Below the pieces are notes generated by a model. That model was not told the origin of the DNA. It did not search any database and saw nothing but the letters and a program-made list of their open reading frames with translations. The translations under genes and the position numbers were made by a program. From the NCBI GenBank assembly GCA_017472065.1, contig JAFURB010000007.1:64626-128625 (forward strand): a stretch of DNA of 64,000 nucleotides, in the 5' to 3' direction. The DNA is from Alphaproteobacteria bacterium (GTDB lineage: Bacteria; Pseudomonadota; Alphaproteobacteria; Rs-D84). Within the stretch, counting starts at the first letter, position 1. The number at the start of each line of letters is the position of its first letter. Positions 3,825-42,680 of the stretch are shown here, one piece after another.

Positions 3825-4328
3825 TTACTTTTTCCCAAAATGTTTCTTTAATATTTCATATGCGGTGGAAATGCGCGCAAATTCAGTGGCGGCATTTTTC
3901 TTGTCATCTGCAGTGTCGGGGTGGTATTTTTTTGCCAATGCACGGTATTTTACACCGACATCACGCCATGTGGCAGATATGCCCAAATCAAATACTTTTA
4001 ATGATGATACAACATTGGTTGGTAATTTGCTTTTCGCAGGAATCCGGTCGAATTTAGAACGGCCAGTGATAAAGTCGTTTATAAAGCGTGCGTAATCGTT
4101 TGCATCTGTGTTTGCGGTGTCTTTATCTTTCAGCGGTGCGCCAAATGTTTGACGTTCCCAATCATCTTCGATTTCATCAGGGGTCATGTCCGCATAGTAA
4201 TTCCAGTTCTTGTTATATTCGGCGGCATGTTCTGGACAGAAAAACCAGTATTCACGCAAATCGCGTGATTTAGGGGCACGGCATGTGCCGGCCTTGGTGC
4301 AGCCTGGTTTGTCACATTTTTTTATCAT
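3825..4328 (-). CDS. J-domain protein (C-terminal DnaJ domain, N-terminal Cys-rich region)
   Basis: 167 aa. The C-terminal J domain is LGISATWRDVGVKYRALAKKYHPDT...AYEILK, which includes HPD. The N-terminus CDKPGCTKAGTCRAP...FCPEH is Cys-rich. The gene shows ATGA-type overlap with the upstream xerD stop. Confidence 0.75.
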   Translation of the reverse strand: MIKKCDKPGCTKAGTCRAPKSRDLREYWFFCPEHAAEYNKNWNYYADMTPDEIEDDWERQTFGAPLKDKDTANTDANDYARFINDFITGRSKFDRIPAKSKLPTNVVSSLKVFDLGISATWRDVGVKYRALAKKYHPDTADDKKNAATEFARISTAYEILKKHFGKK

Positions 4329-35800: not shown

Positions 35801-36574
35801 ATGAACGATGATAACTTGGATTTATTAGATTTAGATGATGGTGCATCAATGGATGCATTGCCAGATGCGGCGCCGTTTGCCGCCCCGCGTCCAAAAAAAC
35901 CGTGGTTGTTGTTGACGGTGGGATTGGTTGTCATCGTGTTGGCAACATATGTAATTATTCGTACTGTTGGGGGAACATCTTCGTCCGCGATAGAGGTTGA
36001 TCTGGACGCGCCTGCGATTGTTGTTGATGGTGCGCCGTCACCGGAAATGAACGTTATGCCACCGGCACCAAAGCCTGTTGCCCAGCCGGCGGTGGCACAG
36101 CCAACACCGGGTGTCCCGGTTCGTGTCGTCGAAGACAGAAAAGATGTCACATTTAATCCAAATGCCACCCAGCCAAAGCCACAACCAGTTGCCAAACCGG
36201 TGGCGGAACCAGTGGTGGCCCAACCAAAACCACAACCGGTCGCAACACAGCCAGTTGTAAAGCCACAGCCAAAACCAGCGGCCAAGCCGGCCACCAAGCC
36301 AGCGGTTAAAAAGACCACAACATCTGCCCCGGCGGGTTCATGGTATGTTCAGTTTGGTTCATACAGCACACGCGCATTGGCAGAAAATGCCCAGCGTCAG
36401 ATACGCAATGCACACCCAAGTCTGTTCGCAGGTCAGCAATTTGTAATTCTGGCGGCCCAGGTCAAGGGGGCAACGACATATCGTCTGCGTGTTGCGTTCA
36501 AGACGGCAAATGATGCAAATGGATTCTGTCGCAATGCGAAATCCGATGGTTTGGATTGCTATGTTGCAAAATAA
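35801..36574 (+). CDS. SPOR-domain protein with Pro-rich linker
   Basis: The start is at MNDDNLDLLDLDDG. It has one TM, PKPQPVA repeats and a C-terminal SPOR domain (GSWYVQFGSYSTRALAENAQRQI...YRLRVAFKTANDANGFC). Confidence 0.8.
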   Translation: MNDDNLDLLDLDDGASMDALPDAAPFAAPRPKKPWLLLTVGLVVIVLATYVIIRTVGGTSSSAIEVDLDAPAIVVDGAPSPEMNVMPPAPKPVAQPAVAQPTPGVPVRVVEDRKDVTFNPNATQPKPQPVAKPVAEPVVAQPKPQPVATQPVVKPQPKPAAKPATKPAVKKTTTSAPAGSWYVQFGSYSTRALAENAQRQIRNAHPSLFAGQQFVILAAQVKGATTYRLRVAFKTANDANGFCRNAKSDGLDCYVAK

Positions 36575-36589
36575 TCAAAGGGGATAGAT

Positions 36590-36781
36590 ATGAGATTAGG
36601 TTGGACCGAAATAATTTTAATTGTCATCCTGGTTATGATTTTGTTTAACAGTCATAAAATCCCGGGTATGATGCGTAATCTGGCCAATGGTGTTAATGTG
36701 TTCAAAAAAGAATTAAAAGACACCAAGAAGTCAGAACCTAAAAAGGCCACAAAAAAATCACCGGCCAAGAAAAAGAAATAA
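36590..36781 (+). CDS. tatA: twin-arginine translocase subunit TatA/E
   Basis: 63 aa. MRLGWTEIILIVILVMILFNSHKIPGMMRNLANGVNVFKKEL matches the TatA TM plus amphipathic helix pattern. Confidence 0.8.
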   Translation: MRLGWTEIILIVILVMILFNSHKIPGMMRNLANGVNVFKKELKDTKKSEPKKATKKSPAKKKK

Positions 36782-36784
36782 AAA

Positions 36785-36809
36785 ATCCCGCCATTTGGCG
36801 GGATTTTTT
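36785..36809 (+). terminator. intrinsic terminator
   Basis: atcccgccatttggcgggatttttt. Confidence 0.8.
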
Positions 36810-36882
36810 CAAAGTGCAGAGTGCAAAGTTCAAATAATGAATACATGATATTACCGCGATAAATAAAAGTTTAGTGGGGTCA

Positions 36883-37238
36883 CCCATTGTCATCGCGAGG
36901 GTGTGAAACACCCGTGGCGATCCAGTAAATAGAAACAAATAGGAATACATAAAACTGGATTGCCGCGCCTGCGCTTTGCTTGGCTCGCAATGACAACTCG
37001 TCGCCAAGGCTTTGGGTTGCAGGCAAACCCGTCGCCAAGGTTTTGGGGTGTGGGCAAGAGCCACGGTGGGGCTAGCCCCATTGTCATCGCGAGGGTGTGA
37101 AACACCCGTGGCGATCCAGTAAATAGAAACAAATAGGAATATATAAGACTGGATTGCCACGCCTGCGCTTTGCTTGGCTCGCAATGACAACCCGTCGCGC
37201 TGTCGCTGCGCCGCGACAAGAACCACGGGATGACAACA
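36883..37238. repeat. cluster of palindromic repeat elements: about 115-nt composite element present twice (36883-36997, 37077-37191; period 194 nt)
   Basis: cccattgtcatcgcgagggtgtgaaacacccgtggcgatccagtaaatagaaacaaataggaata[c/t]ataa[a/g]actggattgcc[g/a]cgcctgcgctttgcttggctcgcaatgacaac occurs twice. A further motif ccacgggatgacaac at 37224-37238 recurs at 39174-39188. Confidence 0.9.
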
Positions 37239-37274
37239 GTATTAATCTCTTAACTGCCCAAAAAAACTAAACAA

Positions 37275-37303
37275 TTGCGAAATTGGAAATAATCAGTTAT
37301 AAT
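37275..37303 (+). promoter_or_regulatory. sigma70-like promoter (TTGCGA-17-TATAAT)
   Basis: ttgcga at 37275-37280, a 17-nt spacer, then tataat at 37298-37303. Confidence 0.5.
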
Positions 37304-37308
37304 ATGCA

Positions 37309-37546
37309 TGTCATGACCGATGGTCATGATGGGGTGTGGAAACCCGTACAATACGCGTCTGTGGAACGAAAACCATGAAATGGCGCGCCAAATGGCGTGT
37401 TTTTCATGCAATGTTTCGCAGATGAAAAATATGAAAAAACTCCTGACTGGTGTCAGGAGGGCTTGCGAATATATTGAATAAGCAGCACAATTCGTATTGA
37501 TTGTTTCCAACCTCCTGACCACTCGAAATAAATTCGGTGGTTTTTT
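37309..37546 (+). ncRNA. candidate structured RNA (sRNA or terminator-containing leader), copy 2, upstream of the DGR target gene
   Basis: Hairpin tcatgacc-gat-ggtcatga lies at about 37311-37329 and a GGAAACCC box at 37338-37345. A perfect hairpin ctcctgac-tggt-gtcaggag lies at 37440-37459. A second copy cctcctgac at 37511-37519 abuts the terminator ccactcgaa..ttcggtgg + T6 (37519-37546). Confidence 0.4.
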
Positions 37547-37680
37547 ATGTAAACATCCGGGGGGAACATGTTTGGAACGAATAATCGCAGTAATGGAATA
37601 ATCGACCGATGTCGCCGTGTGCGTCATGGGTCGATTATTTTTATTACAACCAAACACAGCACAAAGGAAGGAAAACAACA

Positions 37681-39015
37681 ATGACACGAAAAATATTTTT
37701 AACATCCGTTATTGCGATGGGGATTGTGTGCGGTGCCGGTGCGGCACGTGCCGAATCGTTTCCATCCAGCGGATATATGCAAGAAAACAAGACATACGAA
37801 TCGGCGGCGACATATAAAAACACGGGTGTGTACGATGGCGAAGTGTCTGCGACGGCGGAATATACCGACACAATGTACCAGATTGCGGCGGGAACATATC
37901 TGCCCGCGGCCAGCGAAGGTGTAACCGAATCTTGTCCCGCCAACAGTTATTGCCCCGGGGCCAGCAATGTTACATATAATGCGACCGCGGCCCAGGGATT
38001 AACATCATGTCCATCATCGTATCCAAATTCATCCACGGGGGCCAGCAAGCAAACCCAATGCTATACCGCGTGTACATTGTCGGTTGCGAACATCGCGCAT
38101 GCGACGGCGGTAACCGGTAACGATTATTATGGCACCGGCACAGATACATGTGCGGCAACCGCATGTGAAAACGGATATCATGTATTAAATGAAATTGGTG
38201 TTATGGATACGACACCATTGATATCGGTTGATTACACCGAATCGGGTGATGGATATGCATATATTAGTGCCAGTGGCAATGCCAGCAACAGTAATTTATC
38301 GGATGCGGGCCTGACCGAAAATAACACATGGGCGTCGCATTTTGACTATGGCACGGTTTATGGCCATGCCAGTTGCCAGCCAACAGATAGCACAGGTTTG
38401 ATGGAGGCATTTAATGGTATGCAGTCTGTTATGAATGGTGATGTAACAGCCGAAGAATACGAATCGCAAATGACGGACATCATTGGTGCGGCCAAGGCCG
38501 CGTATATGGCGGATTTAGCGACGGGCATGATGGATGGGTCAAAAACCGAATACGATATGTACGAGGCGATGTTTATCATCCTGGGCCAGGATTATGACGC
38601 AGATTATGACACAAGCAGCACGGGCCAGTATTGCTGGTGCCAGATGACGGGCTATAAACCAACCGATGGTGAGCAAAGTTCAGTCGCGGCCGCCCCGTGG
38701 GTGTCCGGCAGCGACTTCGGCTCGGCGGACTATTGCGCGTCCTACTGTGCGGGCGACTGTGCGAACTACCTGCGGAACGATCGCGATGTCTCTCGCGCAT
38801 TCCGCGCTGCGGTGTTCGGGTCGCGTGGCGCCTTGGCGGCTGGCACATGCGAGGCTAATGAAATTAGCATCACATGGACAGACGCCGCGCCAGAGGACGT
38901 TGCCGCGAATAACGCCGGCATGTGTACATACGGCGGTGATATCCGCACACCGGTCAAGGCAGCAACCATCCCAGGTAAGACGTTCAAGGGATGGAAGTTC
39001 GTCAAGGTGAATTAA
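37681..39015 (+). CDS. DGR target (variable) protein: secreted Cys-rich protein carrying the VR
   Basis: The start is at MTRKIFLTSVIAMGIVCGAGAARA (a signal peptide) with an aggaagga SD. It is 444 aa and the VR occupies codons 335-383. The C-terminal tail ...IPGKTFKGWKF resembles a Listeria-Bacteroides repeat (Flg_new) ending. Confidence 0.85.
   Translation: MTRKIFLTSVIAMGIVCGAGAARAESFPSSGYMQENKTYESAATYKNTGVYDGEVSATAEYTDTMYQIAAGTYLPAASEGVTESCPANSYCPGASNVTYNATAAQGLTSCPSSYPNSSTGASKQTQCYTACTLSVANIAHATAVTGNDYYGTGTDTCAATACENGYHVLNEIGVMDTTPLISVDYTESGDGYAYISASGNASNSNLSDAGLTENNTWASHFDYGTVYGHASCQPTDSTGLMEAFNGMQSVMNGDVTAEEYESQMTDIIGAAKAAYMADLATGMMDGSKTEYDMYEAMFIILGQDYDADYDTSSTGQYCWCQMTGYKPTDGEQSSVAAAPWVSGSDFGSADYCASYCAGDCANYLRNDRDVSRAFRAAVFGSRGALAAGTCEANEISITWTDAAPEDVAANNAGMCTYGGDIRTPVKAATIPGKTFKGWKFVKVN
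38683..38829 (+). repeat. DGR variable repeat (VR)
   Basis: It aligns without gaps to 40052-40198 (offset 1369). It encodes VAAAPWVSGSDFGSADYCASYCAGDCANYLRNDRDVSRAFRAAVFGSRG. The identical flanks are 22 nt at the 5' end and 30 nt at the GC-rich 3' end (IMH-like). Confidence 0.9.
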
Positions 39016-39024
39016 TATCACCGT

Positions 39025-39047
39025 CCCCGCCCCCCCCGGGGGCGGGG
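39025..39047 (+). terminator. 10-bp all-GC hairpin just after the target gene stop
   Basis: ccccgccccc-ccc-gggggcgggg, with no T-run. Confidence 0.4.
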
Positions 39048-39049
39048 GC

Positions 39050-39323
39050 CAGCCCATTGTCATTCCGTGGCCTGACCCCGGAATCCAGGTGTATGCAAAT
39101 AAAAAGGCAAACATGACCTGGGTCCCGGTGTCAAGCACCGGGATGACAAAAAAGATAGGTCGCGGTGGGAAAACCACGGGATGACAACCCGCCATTGTCA
39201 TCGCGAGGGTGTGAAACACCCGTGGCGATCCAGTAAATAGAAACAAATAGGAATACATAAAACTGGATTGCCACCATACTACGCTAAAGCTTCGTGTGGC
39301 AGGCGCTGCGCCTCGCAATGACA
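39050..39323. repeat. cluster of palindromic repeat elements downstream of the DGR target gene
   Basis: A variant palindrome is present (cattgtcattccgtggcctgaccccggaatccagg ... cctgggtcccggtgtcaagcaccgggatgaca). It is followed by ccacgggatgacaac and a third copy of the 36883-type element (39192-39323). Confidence 0.85.
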
Positions 39324-39360
39324 AAAGGAAAGAGATAGTAAATAAAACAAAAGGTTCGTT

Positions 39361-39951
39361 TTGGGTAAACGGTATGTGTTTTTAATGACTGTGATTCCTT
39401 TTTCCACGAATTGTTTCGCGGATACGGCATTAGATATCTTGATGCCGGGCGCAGTCGTACAAAATGCATGTGTGTTCCAAAATACCGGCGTGTATGCAGA
39501 TTCATTTACAATGGTGCCTGTGTACGAAGATACGGTGTTTACATGTGAACGCGGATACTATTTGCCAAAAGAATCTGAAACATGTGCGTTGTGTCTGGGT
39601 GATGCATGGTGCCCCGGTGGGGAATATGTTTATTCGGTCGATATGGACAGTGGAATAAATGTTTGCCCGCCCGGAACATACGCACCAATTGGCATGTGGG
39701 AATCGGCACAGTGTGGACGAAGATTCTTTGTCGGGGATGCGTTTTTATACCTGCGCGTGGGAAAAACAACGGCACCCGCACTGCATTTCGATTTCGATGG
39801 TGATGGCACCGCAGATATGTTCGCCAATATGACAACGGCGGACGTGCCAATGAACATGGATACCGAACGTAAATTGAAAATACGTATCGGTGATGTGGTT
39901 TATTCGGTATATGACGATACCGTCACAATACCAAAAACATCAGGGGAATAA
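39361..39951 (+). CDS. secreted Cys-rich protein, N-terminal paralogue of the DGR target (no VR)
   Basis: 196 aa with a TTG start and a signal peptide. NTGVYADSFTMVPVYEDTVFTCERGYYLPKESETCALCLGDAWCPGG aligns to target NTGVYDGEVSATAEYTDTMYQIAAGTYLPAASEGVTESCPANSYCPGA. Confidence 0.65.
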   Translation: MGKRYVFLMTVIPFSTNCFADTALDILMPGAVVQNACVFQNTGVYADSFTMVPVYEDTVFTCERGYYLPKESETCALCLGDAWCPGGEYVYSVDMDSGINVCPPGTYAPIGMWESAQCGRRFFVGDAFLYLRVGKTTAPALHFDFDGDGTADMFANMTTADVPMNMDTERKLKIRIGDVVYSVYDDTVTIPKTSGE

Positions 39952-40051
39952 TCATGTTATTGTGTATATACCCGTTGATGTTAAATCAGGTTCCCGACAT
40001 GAAAATCGGGAATAGGTTGCATTGCCGTTTTTGCGGTTGGTTCGTCGTGTG

Positions 40052-40198
40052 GTCGCGGCCGCCCCGTGGGTGTTCAACAACGACAACGGATCGGCGGACA
40101 ATTGCGCGTCCAACTGTGCGAACAACTGTGCGAACAACCTGCAGAACGATAACGATGACAATCGCGCTTTCCGCGCTGCGGTGTTCGGGTCGCGTGGC
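40052..40198 (+). repeat. DGR template repeat (TR), non-coding
   Basis: It has 31 adenines, all within 40076-40161. In the VR reading frame it holds 10 AAC and 2 AAT codons. It lies in the gap between gene 39361-39951 and the accessory ORF. Confidence 0.9.
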
Positions 40199-40448
40199 TC
40201 CTGGGGACAAAAGTTTTGCTAACCTGTGGGACAAAGTGTACAAACACTTTTCAGATGTGAAAAAATCATCTGGTTTCGAATTGTGCCGTTTTTGTATCCA
40301 AGGCGGGGCGGTGTAACCTGTTTGGACGTGATGAAAAAAAGTCATGTCCCTACGAATACATTACGCAGGGAACATCTGGGTTGGTAACCAATTGTGGCGA
40401 AGACCCGGGATGTTCAATCGTTAAATATTAAAAACAAGAGATTGTACA

Positions 40449-40775
40449 ATGACAATTGATGAAATCAGTCATCTGGATGTCGATGGGGTCCGATGCTTTG
40501 CAGATATGGCACGCGATAAATTACCATTGCCGGGAACAAAAAAAAGACTGGAAGAAATCTTGAATAAAAAAATAGTCGTGCTGGATTTCCGTATCACAAA
40601 ATCTAATAAACGCGAAAATTCAGATTGCCTGCAAATTCAATTCTTGTGCGATGGGGATGTTCATGTCTTGTTCACAGGCAGCGGCGTTTTAATCGACCAA
40701 ATCCAGGCAATCAAAGATAAATTGCCATTGAAAACAGTCGTCGTGAAAATCGATAAATATTATTCCTTCTCGTGA
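40449..40775 (+). CDS. DGR-associated small accessory protein, not recognisably Avd-like
   Basis: 108-aa ORF located 10 nt upstream of the RT gene on the same strand. The sequence looks beta-rich (KKIVVLDFRITKS...CLQIQFLCDGDVHVLFTGSGVLIDQI) rather than the helical basic Avd pattern. Confidence 0.6.
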   Translation: MTIDEISHLDVDGVRCFADMARDKLPLPGTKKRLEEILNKKIVVLDFRITKSNKRENSDCLQIQFLCDGDVHVLFTGSGVLIDQIQAIKDKLPLKTVVVKIDKYYSFS

Positions 40776-40785
40776 TAAAAAAAAT

Positions 40786-41814
40786 ATGAAACGGTACAAA
40801 AATCTTTGGGATGATTTTATTTCTATGGACAATTTGGAATTGGCCGCAAAAAAAGCTGTGCAATCCAAAAAGTCTAAACGCGCAACTAAATTCTTTTTGA
40901 AACATAAAAAAAAGTTACTGAATAAACTGCAACGGCAATTGCAAAACGGAACATTTTATACATCGCAATACAAAATTAGAAAAATTTTCGAACCAAAAGA
41001 AAGACTGATTTATATATTGCCACTGTATCCAGACCATGTGTTGCACCATGCGTTGATAAATATTTTGGGACCAATTTGGCAAAGCGCATTCGTGCGCGAT
41101 TCGTATGCGTGTATCCCAGGCAAAGGACTGCACAAGGCATCCGGCACAATCATGCGATTTGTTCGACGAAATAAATATGTGTTGCAATGCGATATCAAAA
41201 AATTCTATCCGTCAATTAATCACAATGTTATGTTCAATATTATAAAAAGAAAAATCGGTGATAAAAAATTACTGGCGGTGTTGTGGGATATTATAAAATC
41301 GTGCGGGGATGAAAAAAATCTGCCAATCGGAAACCTGACCAGTCAATGGATGGGTAATGTTTATCTGAACGAATTAGACCATTTCGTCAAAGAAAATCTG
41401 CGATGTCGGGATTATATTCGGTACTGTGATGATTTCTGTCTGTTCGCAGATGATAAAAAAATTCTGTGGGAATATAAACAAAAAATCGATGAATTCGTGC
41501 GCGATAAATTAAAATTGGAATTTTCTAAGTCTTCAATTTATCCAGTGGCGCGTGGGGTGAACTTTATCGGGTATCGACATTTCAAAAAATTTATAATGCT
41601 GCGAAAATATGGCGCAAAAAAGTTGCGGCGACGCATCGAAAATATCGCAAATCATGATGATGTGTCTGATTTGGCGGTGGGGCAATTGGCCGCGTATCAC
41701 GGGTGGATTAAATGGTGTTGCAGTTATAATTTCTTGAAAAATCTGTGTCGGCGCGCGTGGCGAATTTCAAATGATTCAGGCCTGTTTATTTGGAACGGGA
41801 TGGCGTTTAGTTAA
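40786..41814 (+). CDS. DGR-type reverse transcriptase
   Basis: 342 aa. Motifs present are NLWDDF...NLELAAKKA, EPKERLIYILPLYPDHVLHHAL, DSYACIPGKGLHKA, CDIKKFYPSINH, LPIGNLTSQWMGNVYLNELDHF (the DGR hallmark [IL]GxxxSQ), YIRYCDDFCLF (YxDD) and GVNFIGY. Confidence 0.92.
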   Translation: MKRYKNLWDDFISMDNLELAAKKAVQSKKSKRATKFFLKHKKKLLNKLQRQLQNGTFYTSQYKIRKIFEPKERLIYILPLYPDHVLHHALINILGPIWQSAFVRDSYACIPGKGLHKASGTIMRFVRRNKYVLQCDIKKFYPSINHNVMFNIIKRKIGDKKLLAVLWDIIKSCGDEKNLPIGNLTSQWMGNVYLNELDHFVKENLRCRDYIRYCDDFCLFADDKKILWEYKQKIDEFVRDKLKLEFSKSSIYPVARGVNFIGYRHFKKFIMLRKYGAKKLRRRIENIANHDDVSDLAVGQLAAYHGWIKWCCSYNFLKNLCRRAWRISNDSGLFIWNGMAFS

Positions 41815-41815
41815 A

Positions 41816-41910
41816 TATCAACTGGGTGGCCGCGTTTTTTGCGTACGCACATTTTAACTGCGTTCCACTTTCTTTGAAGTGTTGTACGCGGCGCGGCCCC
41901 CCAGTTGATA
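41816..41910. repeat. 19-nt inverted repeat pair separated by 57 nt, immediately 3' of the RT gene
   Basis: tatcaactgggtggccgcg (41816-41834) faces cgcggccccccagttgata (41892-41910), with one mismatch. Confidence 0.6.
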
Positions 41911-41933
41911 AAAAAATCCCCCACACGGGGGAT
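41909..41933 (-). terminator. intrinsic terminator of dksA (may also stop RT transcription)
   Basis: The minus strand reads aatcccccgtgtgggggattttttt. Confidence 0.75.
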
Positions 41934-41935
41934 TG

Positions 41936-42367
41936 TTATTTCTTGCGGGCTTCGTATTCTTCTTGTTCTTCGACCGTCATGGTCGCCAATGGGCGTGCCA
42001 TCATCCGTTTAAGACCAATTTCATCGCCGGATACAACACTGAAACCATATGTGCCGTTTTCAATGCGGGCCAGGGCGGCATTAACCTTTTGTAATAATTT
42101 ATTGCTGCGTTCAGACATACGCAGGTCCATGGTGATATCTTGGTTATACGATGCGTTGTCCGATTCGTCACCGGCACCGGCGGCCTCGGTCTTGTCGGCC
42201 ATGCGGACCGCGTTTAATACTTCGTCGCGTTCGCTAAGCAGTTCTTCGCGTTGGTTGTTCAAGATGTTATAGAAGTATGCCAACTGTTCCGCGCACATAT
42301 ATGGTTCAGACAGTTTTGGCTTGTACTTTGATGACAGTTCAATTGTCTTGTAATTAGCTGTTGCCAT
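41936..42367 (-). CDS. dksA: RNA polymerase-binding factor DksA (no Cys4 zinc finger)
   Basis: 143 aa with a coiled coil carrying the DxxDxA tip (DESDNA). The C-terminal ENGTYGFSVVSGDEIGLKRMMARPLATMTVEEQE is homologous to the DksA zinc-finger region but contains no Cys. Confidence 0.8.
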   Translation of the reverse strand: MATANYKTIELSSKYKPKLSEPYMCAEQLAYFYNILNNQREELLSERDEVLNAVRMADKTEAAGAGDESDNASYNQDITMDLRMSERSNKLLQKVNAALARIENGTYGFSVVSGDEIGLKRMMARPLATMTVEEQEEYEARKK

Positions 42368-42680
42368 TTTGTAATTCCTTTATCCAATCAATAACAGTTT
42401 CTTCGTCCATAAGGCCACTGCGTGCCTCAACCAATTCGCCATCCTTGAATGCAAGTACCGACGGAATACTGCGGATGCCGTATTTCGCAGGTGTGCGTCG
42501 ATTGGATTCATCTATTTCAAATTTTACAAATGTAACATCGGATACTTTTTCAGATGCCGCCTCGAATATAGGACCGAACATACGGCATGGACCACACCAT
42601 GATGCCCAGAAATCAACCAATGTTATACCGTTGCCAATATATGTATCAATAGTTGCATCGTTTGCATGTACAAGTGCCAT
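42354..42680 (-). CDS. trxA: thioredoxin
   Basis: The start is taken at MALVHANDAT (42680). The active site is WASWCGPCRMF. Confidence 0.9.
   Translation of the reverse strand: MALVHANDATIDTYIGNGITLVDFWASWCGPCRMFGPIFEAASEKVSDVTFVKFEIDESNRRTPAKYGIRSIPSVLAFKDGELVEARSGLMDEETVIDWIKELQNGNS

What the first reader, a model, noticed from the sequence alone, without database searches (positions are those of the whole stretch)
40449..40775. DGR accessory gene that does not look like Avd
**Seen.** A 108-aa ORF sits 10 nt upstream of the RT gene on the same strand and downstream of the TR. This is the slot usually occupied by the accessory variability determinant. Its sequence is MTIDEISHLDVDGVRCFADMARDKLPLPGTKKRLEEILNKKIVVLDFRITKSNKRENSDCLQIQFLCDGDVHVLFTGSGVLIDQIQAIKDKLPLKTVVVKIDKYYSFS. 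It has alternating hydrophobic patterns suggestive of beta strands.

**Established knowledge.** Avd is a small, basic, four-helix-bundle protein. Some DGRs instead carry HRDC-type accessories or none at all.

**Inference.** This may be an uncharacterised class of DGR accessory factor, for example an OB- or barrel-like nucleic-acid binder. I cannot place it in a family by eye.
Basis: partly seen in the sequence, partly recalled or inferred. Interest (0 to 1): 0.7.

Follow-up and report, generated by a model that had tools for sequence, protein, structure and literature searches.

The report
Non-Avd partner protein of DGR reverse transcriptases
The small gene next to this diversity-generating retroelement's reverse transcriptase is real, is not Avd, and belongs to a large unnamed family of small beta-barrel proteins found beside (or fused to) such reverse transcriptases in bacteria, archaeal viruses and phages, so it is a strong candidate for the missing helper protein of Avd-less DGRs.

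Summary
A 108-aa ORF (40449-40775, +) lies 10 nt upstream of a DGR reverse transcriptase (RT) and 243 nt downstream of a template repeat whose mismatches to the variable repeat fall mostly on adenines (18/22). It is under purifying selection (dN/dS about 0.09-0.24).

It is not Avd, HRDC, MSL or CH1:
- no Pfam or PHROG hit and only sub-threshold NCBIfam noise;
- pI 7.7;
- a confident AlphaFold2 model (pLDDT 91.9) with OB-like b1-b2-b3-alpha-b4-b5 order, not a four-helix bundle.

It belongs to a large unannotated family (988 clusters at 50% identity). Among 160 loci found through the protein, 156 hold a DGR-type RT, almost always adjacent and co-oriented. There are two gene orders: TR-acc-RT (gut Candidatus Enterousia, as here) and TR-RT-acc (phages, archaeal viruses including ANMV-1, other phyla). 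At least 13 clusters are natural RT-domain fusions. Avd is essentially absent (1 of 220 neighbour ORFs).

Caveats: 30 of 80 loci sampled through the RT lack the protein, nucleic-acid binding is untested, and OB similarity to solved structures is weak.

Best reading: an RT-bound, probably nucleic-acid-binding subunit of an Avd-less DGR class. I found no description of it in the literature searched.

The parts
37609..39015 (+). DGR target gene (468 aa, no Pfam family). It contains the variable repeat, followed by about 59 further codons.
   Evidence: ORF list. The VR is in frame. No Pfam hit.
38683..38836 (+). Variable repeat (VR)
   Evidence: 154-nt direct repeat with the TR, 86% identical. 18 of 22 mismatches lie opposite TR adenines.
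40052..40205 (+). Template repeat (TR)
   Evidence: The same VR-TR-acc-RT order occurs in 33 related loci that have a detectable TR/VR pair.
40223..40415 (+). Structured non-coding RNA in the TR-to-ORF spacer, the probable counterpart of the BPP-1 'Sp' RNA. It has a long-range helix (40223-40227 / 40365-40369), a hairpin (40230-40237 / 40246-40252) and a 3' hairpin (40370-40389 / 40396-40415).
   Evidence: RNAalifold on 33 Enterousia-type spacers gives 29 pairs, 19 of them with compensatory double changes. Coordinates were mapped. The covariance model of the viral-type spacers aligns at 40289-40425 with a weak score (10.7 bits) but in register with the shared core motif.
40449..40775 (+). The finding: a 108-aa OB-like beta-barrel protein, a candidate non-Avd DGR accessory subunit ('acc')
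40786..41814 (+). DGR reverse transcriptase (342 aa)
   Evidence: RVT_1 and phrog_1423 hits. The RT part of a related natural fusion superimposes on the Bordetella phage DGR RT in 8UB7 (TM 0.90 normalised to bRT, rmsd 2.2 A, 30% identity).

Best explanation
The ORF encodes a small OB-like beta-barrel protein that is a dedicated partner subunit of the reverse transcriptase in an Avd-less class of diversity-generating retroelements. Proposed mechanism: TR, the structured spacer RNA, acc and RT are transcribed as one unit. The protein is made together with the RT (the two genes are tightly adjacent or overlapping) and docks near the RT's C-terminal (thumb) end, the point where it is covalently joined in natural fusions. 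There it binds single-stranded or structured nucleic acid (DGR RNA and/or nascent cDNA). In this view it does for this RT clade what the Avd pentamer does for the Bordetella phage RT: it organises or stabilises the ribonucleoprotein so that adenine-mutagenic cDNA synthesis can start and proceed. Shown here: the gene is real and under selection; it is not Avd, HRDC, MSL or CH1; it has an OB-like predicted topology; it is tightly and specifically linked to DGR RTs in two gene orders; it is recurrently fused to the RT; and Avd is absent from these cassettes. Inferred, not shown: physical binding to the RT, nucleic-acid binding, and a requirement for cDNA synthesis or retrohoming.
For: Gene reality: 111 near-equal-length relatives, 988 clusters at 50% identity, and dN/dS 0.09-0.24.

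Not a known accessory: no Pfam or PHROG hit and only sub-threshold NCBIfam noise; no PDB sequence hit; pI 7.7 with a family mean of about 8.0-8.2.

Fold: AF2 pLDDT 91.9, with strands at 41-51, 59-67 and 70-76, a helix at 79-87, then strands at 94-101 and 104-107. Most of the weak PDB matches are OB folds, namely RuvBL domain II, hSSB, RPA, HIN-200 and AB5 B subunits. Matches to predicted viral structures include 'ssDNA binding protein' entries and two RT-annotated proteins at E about 1e-6.

Linkage: 156 of 160 acc-sampled loci contain a DGR-like RT. The architectures are VR-TR-RT-acc (64 loci, plus 24 with no TR/VR detected) and VR-TR-acc-RT (33, plus 22). 113 of 161 sequences have an A-biased TR/VR pair. 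The acc-to-RT intergenic median is 4 nt, and 17 of 60 overlap by 4 nt.

Fusions: RVT_1 plus a C-terminal acc domain in P0149, P0194 and P0221. At least 13 full-length fusion clusters exist, including a Labilibaculum euxinus genome, and they sit in real DGRs (14/15 and 14/16 A-specific mismatches).

The RT is of the DGR class: best structural match is bRT in 8UB7.

Avd absence: 1 Avd-family hit among 220 neighbour ORFs, and no HRDC or MutS.

Breadth: present in archaeal virus ANMV-1 (AJP62065.1, directly after the RT) and in a Methanosarcinales virus, both annotated 'hypothetical'.

Avd's role as an RNP scaffold about 40 A from the active site comes from Handa et al., bioRxiv 10.1101/2023.10.23.563531.
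Against: Among 80 viral loci sampled through the RT rather than through the protein, 30 with room downstream have no detectable acc and no Avd. The protein is therefore not universally required in this RT clade, or it can be supplied from elsewhere or replaced. The conserved spacer RNA is present in both acc+ and acc- cassettes (by my tally, 23/30 and about 29/49), so no acc-specific RNA element was found. The protein is near neutral (pI 7.7), which is not what one expects of a non-specific nucleic-acid binder. Foldseek similarity to solved OB folds is weak (best E 0.03, TM at most 0.54). The fusion model gives no usable information on the domain interface, because no coordinates or PAE were available and the linker has pLDDT 63-79. 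Three loci carry acc with no RT within 6 kb.
Confidence: 0.6

Rival explanations
1. Post-synthesis single-strand binder. The protein is an SSB-like factor that coats or protects the adenine-mutagenised cDNA and hands it to the homing or recombination step at the VR, rather than helping the RT make cDNA.
For: OB-like topology, with weak matches to hSSB and RPA and to phage 'ssDNA binding protein' models. A tandem-duplicated form, P0131, recalls multi-OB ssDNA binders. The spacer RNA does not differ between acc+ and acc- cassettes, which fits a ligand other than the RNA. Thirty of 80 cassettes in the RT clade do without it, as could happen if a host SSB can substitute.
Against: Covalent fusion to the RT C-terminus through a very short junction would limit stoichiometric coating of a roughly 100-nt cDNA. 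There is no sequence-profile match to the SSB family. The protein is near neutral. This rival overlaps with the best explanation, and the two cannot be separated by computation.
Confidence: 0.22
2. Regulator or passenger. The gene is carried with the RT for another reason, for example as an inhibitor or timer of RT activity or as a phage-module gene that hitch-hikes, and is not part of the diversification chemistry.
For: It is absent from 30 of 80 RT-sampled cassettes. Other small, lineage-specific acidic ORFs also follow the RT or acc in phage loci: 38 of 84 viral-type loci have ORF X.
Against: It is retained next to the RT in chromosomal, non-phage contexts, as in the window, where the flanking genes look like housekeeping genes. 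It is also retained in archaeal viruses and across several bacterial phyla. It keeps adjacency through an inversion of gene order and is repeatedly fused to the RT. That is not the behaviour of a passenger gene.
Confidence: 0.12
3. A highly divergent Avd or another already-named accessory (HRDC, MSL, CH1).
For: It has the same kind of genomic association with a DGR RT and a similar size to Avd.
Against: No hit to PF05635 or to any other Pfam or NCBIfam model above noise. The confidently predicted fold is beta-rich, not a four-helix bundle. No Avd, HRDC or MutS structure appears among the 50 best PDB matches listed. pI is 7.7, against 9.5 +/- 0.7 for Avd. Length and pI do not fit CH1 (160-169 aa, pI 4.7). 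MSL always co-occurs with avd, which is absent here (Wu et al. 2018).
Confidence: 0.03
4. Not a gene: a chance ORF within the DGR transcript.
For: No strong Shine-Dalgarno motif is evident upstream.
Against: 988 homologous clusters with conserved length and invariant residues. dN/dS is 0.09-0.24. The AF2 model is confident.
Confidence: 0.01

Closest known systems
Avd (accessory variability determinant, Pfam PF05635 / four-helix-bundle family) of Bordetella phage BPP-1 and most DGRs
   Same: A small protein encoded within the DGR cassette, co-oriented with the RT, and presumably forming an RNP with the RT and the TR-Sp RNA. The cassette here also has a structured RNA 3' of the TR, as BPP-1 does (Handa et al.).
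   Different: Unrelated in sequence and predicted fold (beta-barrel against four-helix bundle). It is not strongly basic. It sits after the TR (TR-acc-RT or TR-RT-acc) rather than before it (avd-TR-RT). It is recurrently fused to the RT C-terminus, whereas Avd contacts the RT N-terminal extension. Its oligomeric state is unknown.
Other named DGR accessories of Wu et al. 2018 (HRDC, MSL, CH1, PAG1-4)
   Same: Alternative small accessory genes defined by conserved adjacency to DGR RTs. CH1, like this family, occurs only in DGRs without avd.
   Different: No HRDC or MutS_I profile hit. CH1 is 160-169 aa and acidic (pI 4.7), whereas this protein is 108 aa with pI 7.7. MSL always co-occurs with avd. 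PAG1-4 sequences could not be retrieved, so identity with one of those minor candidates (3-4 DGRs each) cannot be excluded.
OB-fold single-strand nucleic-acid binders (bacterial/phage SSB, hSSB1, RPA domains, HIN-200)
   Same: The same order of secondary-structure elements (b1-b2-b3-alpha-b4-b5) and a similar domain size. These are the recurrent, though weak, Foldseek matches. Conserved aromatic and basic residues lie on the strands: F65, F75, Y104, Y105, K31, K53, K100.
   Different: No sequence-profile relationship. TM-scores are at most about 0.54. There is an extra conserved N-terminal helical segment with the FSDF motif. Ligand binding is untested.
C-terminal DNA-binding (D) domain of group II intron reverse transcriptases
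   Same: An extra nucleic-acid-binding module placed after the thumb of an RT from the sister lineage of DGR RTs. In the natural fusions the acc domain occupies that position.
   Different: No homology was shown. This is an analogy of position only, based on my own knowledge of group II intron RT architecture.

Membership tests
Avd (PF05635 / TIGR02436 four-helix-bundle proteins) | Significant match to the family profile | tested here: not met
   No Pfam hit at E<=1, and no Avd or four-helix-bundle model among the NCBIfam hits at E<=1. No PDB sequence match beyond noise.
Avd (PF05635 / TIGR02436 four-helix-bundle proteins) | All-alpha four-helix-bundle fold | tested here: not met
   AF2 model with pLDDT 91.9, six beta strands and one main helix. 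No Avd among the 50 best Foldseek PDB matches listed, although bRT-Avd entries (8UB7 and others) are in the library.
Avd (PF05635 / TIGR02436 four-helix-bundle proteins) | Strongly basic (pI about 9.5 +/- 0.7, Wu et al. 2018) | tested here: not met
   pI 7.7 and net charge about +0.7. Family mean is 8.0-8.2.
Avd (PF05635 / TIGR02436 four-helix-bundle proteins) | Homopentamer that binds the RT N-terminal extension and a stem-loop 3' of the TR | not testable with these tools
   No multimer or RNA-protein modelling was available.
HRDC-type DGR accessory | HRDC domain profile match and all-alpha fold | tested here: not met
MSL (MutS-like) DGR accessory | Similarity to the MutS mismatch-recognition domain, and co-occurrence with avd | tested here: not met
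   No MutS_I Pfam hit. No MutS among the fold matches listed. Avd is absent from these cassettes.
CH1 DGR accessory (Wu et al. 2018) | 160-169 aa and acidic (pI 4.7 +/- 0.2) | tested here: not met
   108 aa with pI 7.7. CH1 sequences themselves could not be obtained for direct comparison.
OB-fold superfamily | Five-stranded beta-barrel with a helix between strands 3 and 4 | tested here: inconclusive
   The order of elements fits and most of the top weak Foldseek matches are OB folds. However, the best E is 0.03 and TM is at most 0.54. Barrel closure could not be inspected because no coordinates are returned.
OB-fold superfamily | Binds single-stranded nucleic acid or oligosaccharide on the b2-b3 face | not testable with these tools
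   Only the conservation of aromatic and basic residues on the strands is seen.
Diversity-generating retroelement (the system that contains the ORF) | TR/VR pair whose differences are concentrated at TR adenines, with the VR inside a coding gene | tested here: met
   18 of 22 mismatches are at A, and the VR is in frame in the 468-aa ORF.
Diversity-generating retroelement (the system that contains the ORF) | RT of the DGR clade | tested here: met
   phrog_1423 6e-96. A related RT is structurally closest to bRT in 8UB7, with TM 0.90.
New 'acc' family defined here | About 95-110 aa; conserved F17, G29, K31, S52, Q64, the F75-T-G-S78 motif, P93 and the C-terminal KxDKYY-like motif; adjacent to or fused with a DGR RT | tested here: met
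   Alignments and synteny.

The most novel reading that the evidence does not exclude
This OB-like protein defines a second, Avd-independent way of building the DGR ribonucleoprotein. In it, an RT-tethered (sometimes RT-fused) single-domain nucleic-acid binder replaces the pentameric Avd scaffold. This architecture would be shared by gut Alphaproteobacteria, many phages and archaeal viruses such as ANMV-1. The natural RT-acc fusions would then be single-polypeptide DGR enzymes, attractive as minimal parts for programmable in vivo mutagenesis.
Probability: 0.4. Interest if true: 0.8.

Novelty: new variant of a known kind. Interest (0 to 1): 0.7.

Why it matters
Wu et al. 2018 counted 29% of catalogued DGRs as having no accessory gene and inferred that some undefined Avd-independent mechanism of mutagenic retrohoming must exist. 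Mechanistic and engineering work, by contrast, rests almost entirely on the Bordetella phage bRT-Avd pair. A conserved RT partner with a different predicted fold makes that open question directly testable, because there is now a defined protein to delete, purify and co-fold with the RT and its structured RNA. The family is linked to the RT in two gene orders, is recurrently fused to the RT, and occurs in bacteria, phages and archaeal viruses. It also flags the small ORF after the ANMV-1 RT as a likely functional component, and it offers compact (even single-chain) DGR enzymes for directed-evolution tools. For annotation, roughly a thousand clusters of 'hypothetical proteins' gain a context-based name.

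Tried and rejected
1. Profile searches of the protein against Pfam, PHROGs, NCBIfam and PDB sequences found nothing above noise. PHROGs gives only a weak link between some viral relatives and phrog_19665, 'unknown function'.

2. Foldseek against the PDB gave no significant match, only a consistent set of weak OB-fold hits.

3. Retrieving Wu et al.'s accessory-gene sequences (CH1, MSL, PAG1-4) for direct comparison failed because the supplements are not held.

4. Literature searches for an OB-fold, SSB-like or Avd-independent DGR accessory found nothing (papers read).

5. I looked for Avd among neighbour ORFs by scanning 72 recurrent-cluster representatives and 148 singletons. There was one Avd-family hit, and I did not trace its locus.

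6. I modelled a natural RT-acc fusion to see the docking. The model is confident per residue, but no coordinates or PAE are returned, so the interface is unresolved.

7. I tested whether the TR-proximal RNA differs between acc+ and acc- cassettes. It does not at the level of a covariance model.

8. I tested whether the acidic ORFs that follow the RT or acc in phage loci are divergent acc homologues. They are not (hhalign probability 0.08%).

9. I asked whether ORF X is a universal third component. It is not: 38 of 84 loci, and absent from the window and from ANMV-1.

10. An Rfam scan of 36000-42500 found no known family above threshold.

Full report
**1. The observation**

The window has an ATG-initiated ORF at 40449..40775 (+) of 108 codons with exactly the quoted sequence. 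Ten nucleotides downstream, the 342-aa ORF 40786..41814 (+) begins. It is a reverse transcriptase (RT): Pfam RVT_1 at 9e-14 and PHROG phrog_1423 'Reverse transcriptase' at 6e-96.

A 154-nt direct repeat links 40052-40205 (TR) with 38683-38836 (VR) at 86% identity. Eighteen of the 22 differences lie at adenines of the TR copy. The VR is in frame inside the 468-aa ORF 37609..39015. So this is a real DGR cassette in the order target(VR) - 196-aa ORF - TR - 243-nt spacer - 108-aa ORF - RT.

The only imprecision is that the prototypical Avd gene lies upstream of the TR, not between TR and RT (Wu et al. 2018, PMC5758913).

**2. Is it a gene?**

Yes.
- A word-indexed search of 5.8 billion clusters found 111 relatives. 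Nearly all are exactly 108 aa, 43-99% identical, and where named they are 'hypothetical protein' from Alphaproteobacteria, Candidatus Enterousia or Rickettsiales MAGs.
- An exhaustive HMM search of 1.84 billion representatives found 988 clusters at E<=1e-3 and 448 at E<=1e-10, mostly 91-115 aa.
- Fourteen positions are invariant in the 45-sequence alignment.
- Across 138 diverse members the most conserved positions are F17, G29, K31, S52, Q64, F75, S78 and P93 (all at least 93%). T76, V80, L81, Q84 and F94 are also highly conserved, and the C-terminus is aromatic and basic.
- Nei-Gojobori dN/dS between the window gene and its closest relatives is 0.09-0.24.

**3. What it is not**

The protein has no hit in Pfam or PHROGs at E<=1. 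NCBIfam gives only noise: Fos-family hits at E 0.04-0.09, scoring 13-14 bits against curated cut-offs of 250-290 bits. A family profile finds nothing in PDB sequences beyond E=1.6.

Its pI is 7.7. The family mean is 8.0-8.2 with SD 1.0-1.4, against 9.5 +/- 0.7 for Avd.

Wu et al.'s other classes do not fit either:
- HRDC and MSL are defined by HRDC and MutS-like similarity, which is absent here, and MSL always accompanies avd.
- CH1 is 160-169 aa with pI 4.7.
- The minor candidates PAG1-4 could not be compared, because the supplements are not held.

**4. Predicted structure**

AlphaFold2 with the family alignment gives a confident model (mean pLDDT 91.9, pTM 0.74). It has two short N-terminal helices (3-7, 17-20) and a short strand (30-32). 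These are followed by strands 41-51, 59-67 and 70-76, a helix at 79-87, and strands 94-101 and 104-107. That is the b1-b2-b3-alpha-b4-b5 order of an OB fold and is incompatible with a four-helix bundle.

Foldseek against the PDB gives no match below E=0.03. Most of the weak matches are nonetheless OB folds: RuvBL domain II (2CQA, TM 0.48/0.54), DUF2500, hSSB1, RPA, HIN-200 domains and AB5-toxin B subunits. No Avd appears among the 50 best matches listed.

Against predicted viral structures, the two best matches (E about 1e-6) are proteins annotated as reverse transcriptases. Several others are annotated 'ssDNA binding protein'. I therefore call the fold OB-like, with the superfamily assignment tentative.

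**5. Synteny, sampled through the protein**

A profile-guided scan returned 80 genome loci and 80 viral loci, out of 102 and 241 confirmed matches. The hosts are mostly gut and rumen Candidatus Enterousia or Alphaproteobacteria MAGs. They also include Omnitrophota, Nitrospirae, Deltaproteobacteria, termite-gut 'Rickettsiales' and an ANME-2 archaeon.

tblastn with the window RT finds an RT in 156 of the 160 loci. A de novo search for A-biased repeat pairs finds a TR/VR in 113 of 161 sequences, that is, the 160 loci plus the window segment.

Two stereotyped, co-oriented architectures account for almost all loci:
- VR-TR-RT-acc: 64 loci, plus 24 where no TR/VR was detected.
- VR-TR-acc-RT: 33 loci, plus 22. 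This is the Enterousia clade, as in the window.

The acc-to-RT gap has a median of 4 nt, and 17 of 60 overlap by 4 nt. In the other order the ORFs overlap or abut. Keeping adjacency through an inversion of gene order is strong evidence of a functional link.

Of the four loci without an RT hit, one is cut by a contig end (L071). Three lack an RT within 6 kb (L024, L063, L080), and L080 still has a TR just upstream of acc.

**6. Fusions**

Several family members are long proteins with an N-terminal RVT_1 domain and the acc domain at the C-terminus (P0149, P0194, P0221).

A search with P0194 found at least 13 full-length fusion clusters at 48-83% identity. They include a protein from a 5.19-Mb contig of Labilibaculum euxinus, where it occurs twice.

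The junction is short: the RT C-terminal motif YWGWFKHANTYNL runs within a few residues into the FSDFAK start of the domain.

These fusion loci are real DGRs, with 14/15 and 14/16 mismatches at TR adenines. One member (P0131) is a tandem duplication of the domain.

The AF2 model of the P0194 fusion (pLDDT 92.1) has an RT part that superimposes best on the Bordetella phage DGR RT within its RNP (8UB7: E 5.8e-22, TM 0.90 normalised to bRT, rmsd 2.2 A, 30% identity). So the partner RT is a true DGR enzyme. The domain interface could not be read, because no coordinates or PAE are returned and the linker has pLDDT 63-79.

**7. Avd is missing from these cassettes**

I collected ORFs of 75-200 aa within 2.5 kb of the RT/acc pair in about 155 loci and clustered them. 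I then scanned 72 representatives of recurrent clusters and 148 singletons against Pfam.

There was one match to the Avd family (PF05635, 1.7e-27) and none to HRDC or MutS. In the compact phage form there is also no room for avd: the TR-to-RT spacer is 103-191 nt and the VR-to-TR gaps are similarly short in the loci inspected.

The archaeal virus ANMV-1 carries the gene directly after its RT (AJP62065.1, 'hypothetical protein'), as does a Methanosarcinales virus. Paul et al. 2015 (PMC4372165) do not discuss that ORF.

**8. Converse control, sampled through the RT**

I took 80 viral loci found with an RT-only alignment.
- 49 carry acc: 29 directly after the RT, 16 lying 300-545 nt downstream of or overlapping the RT match, 3 upstream, and 1 fused.
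- 30 with room downstream carry none.
- 1 is cut off downstream by the contig end.

The 30 without acc have no Avd either. They usually have a small acidic ORF (pI 4.3-5.0) after the RT. That ORF is unrelated to acc (hhalign probability 0.08%) and resembles Wu et al.'s description of CH1.

So acc is a frequent but not universal partner in this Avd-less RT clade.

**9. The RNA next to it**

The spacer between the TR and the next gene is a conserved structured RNA in both architectures.
- Enterousia-type spacers: 29 consensus pairs, 19 with compensatory double changes.
- Viral-type spacers: 18 pairs, 16 with compensatory changes.

Both share a core motif: A(A/U)ACAnAACG(G/C)AGG - stem - YUAGUA - mini-hairpin - CGAA - stem'. 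In the window the element spans about 40223-40415. It aligns weakly, but in register, to a covariance model of the viral type (10.7 bits).

That model hits immediately upstream of the RT in 54 of the 80 RT-sampled loci. By my tally of the hit list this is 23 of the 30 acc- loci and about 29 of the 49 acc+ loci, and it also hits the fusion locus L163. The RNA therefore tracks the RT clade and not acc, and no acc-specific RNA feature emerged.

For comparison, in BPP-1 the Avd pentamer binds a stem-loop just 3' of the TR and the RT's N-terminal extension, about 40 A from the active site, and acts as an RNP scaffold (Handa et al., bioRxiv 10.1101/2023.10.23.563531).

**10. Interpretation**

Shown:
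- The gene is real and under purifying selection.
- It is not Avd, HRDC, MSL or CH1.
- It has an OB-like predicted topology.
- It is specifically and tightly linked to DGR RTs, in two gene orders plus recurrent C-terminal fusion.
- Avd is absent from these cassettes.
- The family ranges widely across bacteria, phages and archaeal viruses.

Inferred: it binds the RT near the thumb and C-terminus and binds nucleic acid, serving as the accessory subunit of an Avd-less DGR RNP.

The main rival is an SSB-like role after cDNA synthesis, which cannot be separated from this by computation. A passenger or regulator role is less likely given the fusions and the chromosomal, non-phage occurrences. Divergent Avd and non-coding readings are rejected.

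**11. Novelty**

No library (Pfam, NCBIfam, PHROGs, PDB) and no paper reachable here names this family or an OB-like DGR accessory. I rate it a new variant of a known kind: a DGR with a different accessory class. Identity with one of Wu et al.'s minor 'PAG' candidates could not be excluded.

Noticed in passing
window 40206-40448 (core 40223-40415); also L001-L074 spacers and L065-L160 TR-to-RT spacers: A conserved structured RNA lies between the TR and the next gene, with many compensatory base-pair changes and a core motif (ACAnAACGSAGG - stem - YUAGUA - mini-hairpin - CGAA - stem') shared by both cassette architectures. It is not in Rfam. It tracks the RT clade whether or not the small protein is present.
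   Followed up: yes
L171:4047-4349, L203:4004-4420, L214:3986-4345, L093:6291-6563 and others (RT-sampled viral loci): In cassettes of the same RT clade that lack the small protein, a small acidic ORF (pI 4.3-5.0, 84-140 aa) follows the RT directly. It is unrelated to the finding's family and resembles the published description of accessory class CH1. One member weakly matches DUF4376, so it may instead be a phage tail-module gene.
   Followed up: partly
e.g. L140:5970-6278; 38 of 84 viral-type loci: A different acidic ORF of about 103-107 aa (pI about 4.3, no Pfam or PHROG hit) sits 15-18 nt downstream of the small protein. It is absent from the window and from ANMV-1.
   Followed up: partly
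window 36883-37004, 37077-37198, 39191-39312; also 39058-39152: Three copies of a 122-nt repeat (97% and 71% identity to the reference copy) flank the DGR target gene. A palindromic stretch just after the target gene gives sub-threshold Rfam hits on both strands (WsnRNA46, 33 bits against a gathering score of 65). These look like MITE- or REP-like elements.
   Followed up: no
window 39361-39951 (+): A 196-aa ORF lies between the target gene and the TR. It has an apparently signal-peptide-like N-terminus and a Cys-rich segment resembling the target's N-terminal part (weak TNFR_c6 hit, E 0.013). Similar proteins recur near other Enterousia DGRs (e.g. L059:7942-8526). It carries no VR.
   Followed up: no
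window 38836-39015: The target ORF continues for about 59 codons beyond the VR, whereas DGR VRs usually lie at the very C-terminus.
   Followed up: no
L161 (ANMV-1, KP703175.1) 2708-2902 and 3980-4276: The 64-aa ORF between the ANMV-1 target and RT (AJP62063.1) overlaps the TR (L161 2693-2810). It is probably what was drawn as 'Avd' in the original figure. The conserved partner gene found here is the ORF after the RT (AJP62065.1).
   Followed up: partly
P0131 (233 aa): A protein with two tandem copies of the domain behind an acidic N-terminal tail, which hints that the functional unit may be a dimer.
   Followed up: no
L080:5688-6279; L024; L063: Three loci carry the small gene with no RT within 6 kb. 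In L080 a TR still lies directly upstream and a VR lies nearby, which suggests RT loss or an RT acting in trans.
   Followed up: no
one of the 148 singleton neighbour ORFs in alignment A3: One neighbour ORF matches the Avd family (PF05635, 1.7e-27). I did not trace which locus it comes from or whether it belongs to that DGR.
   Followed up: no
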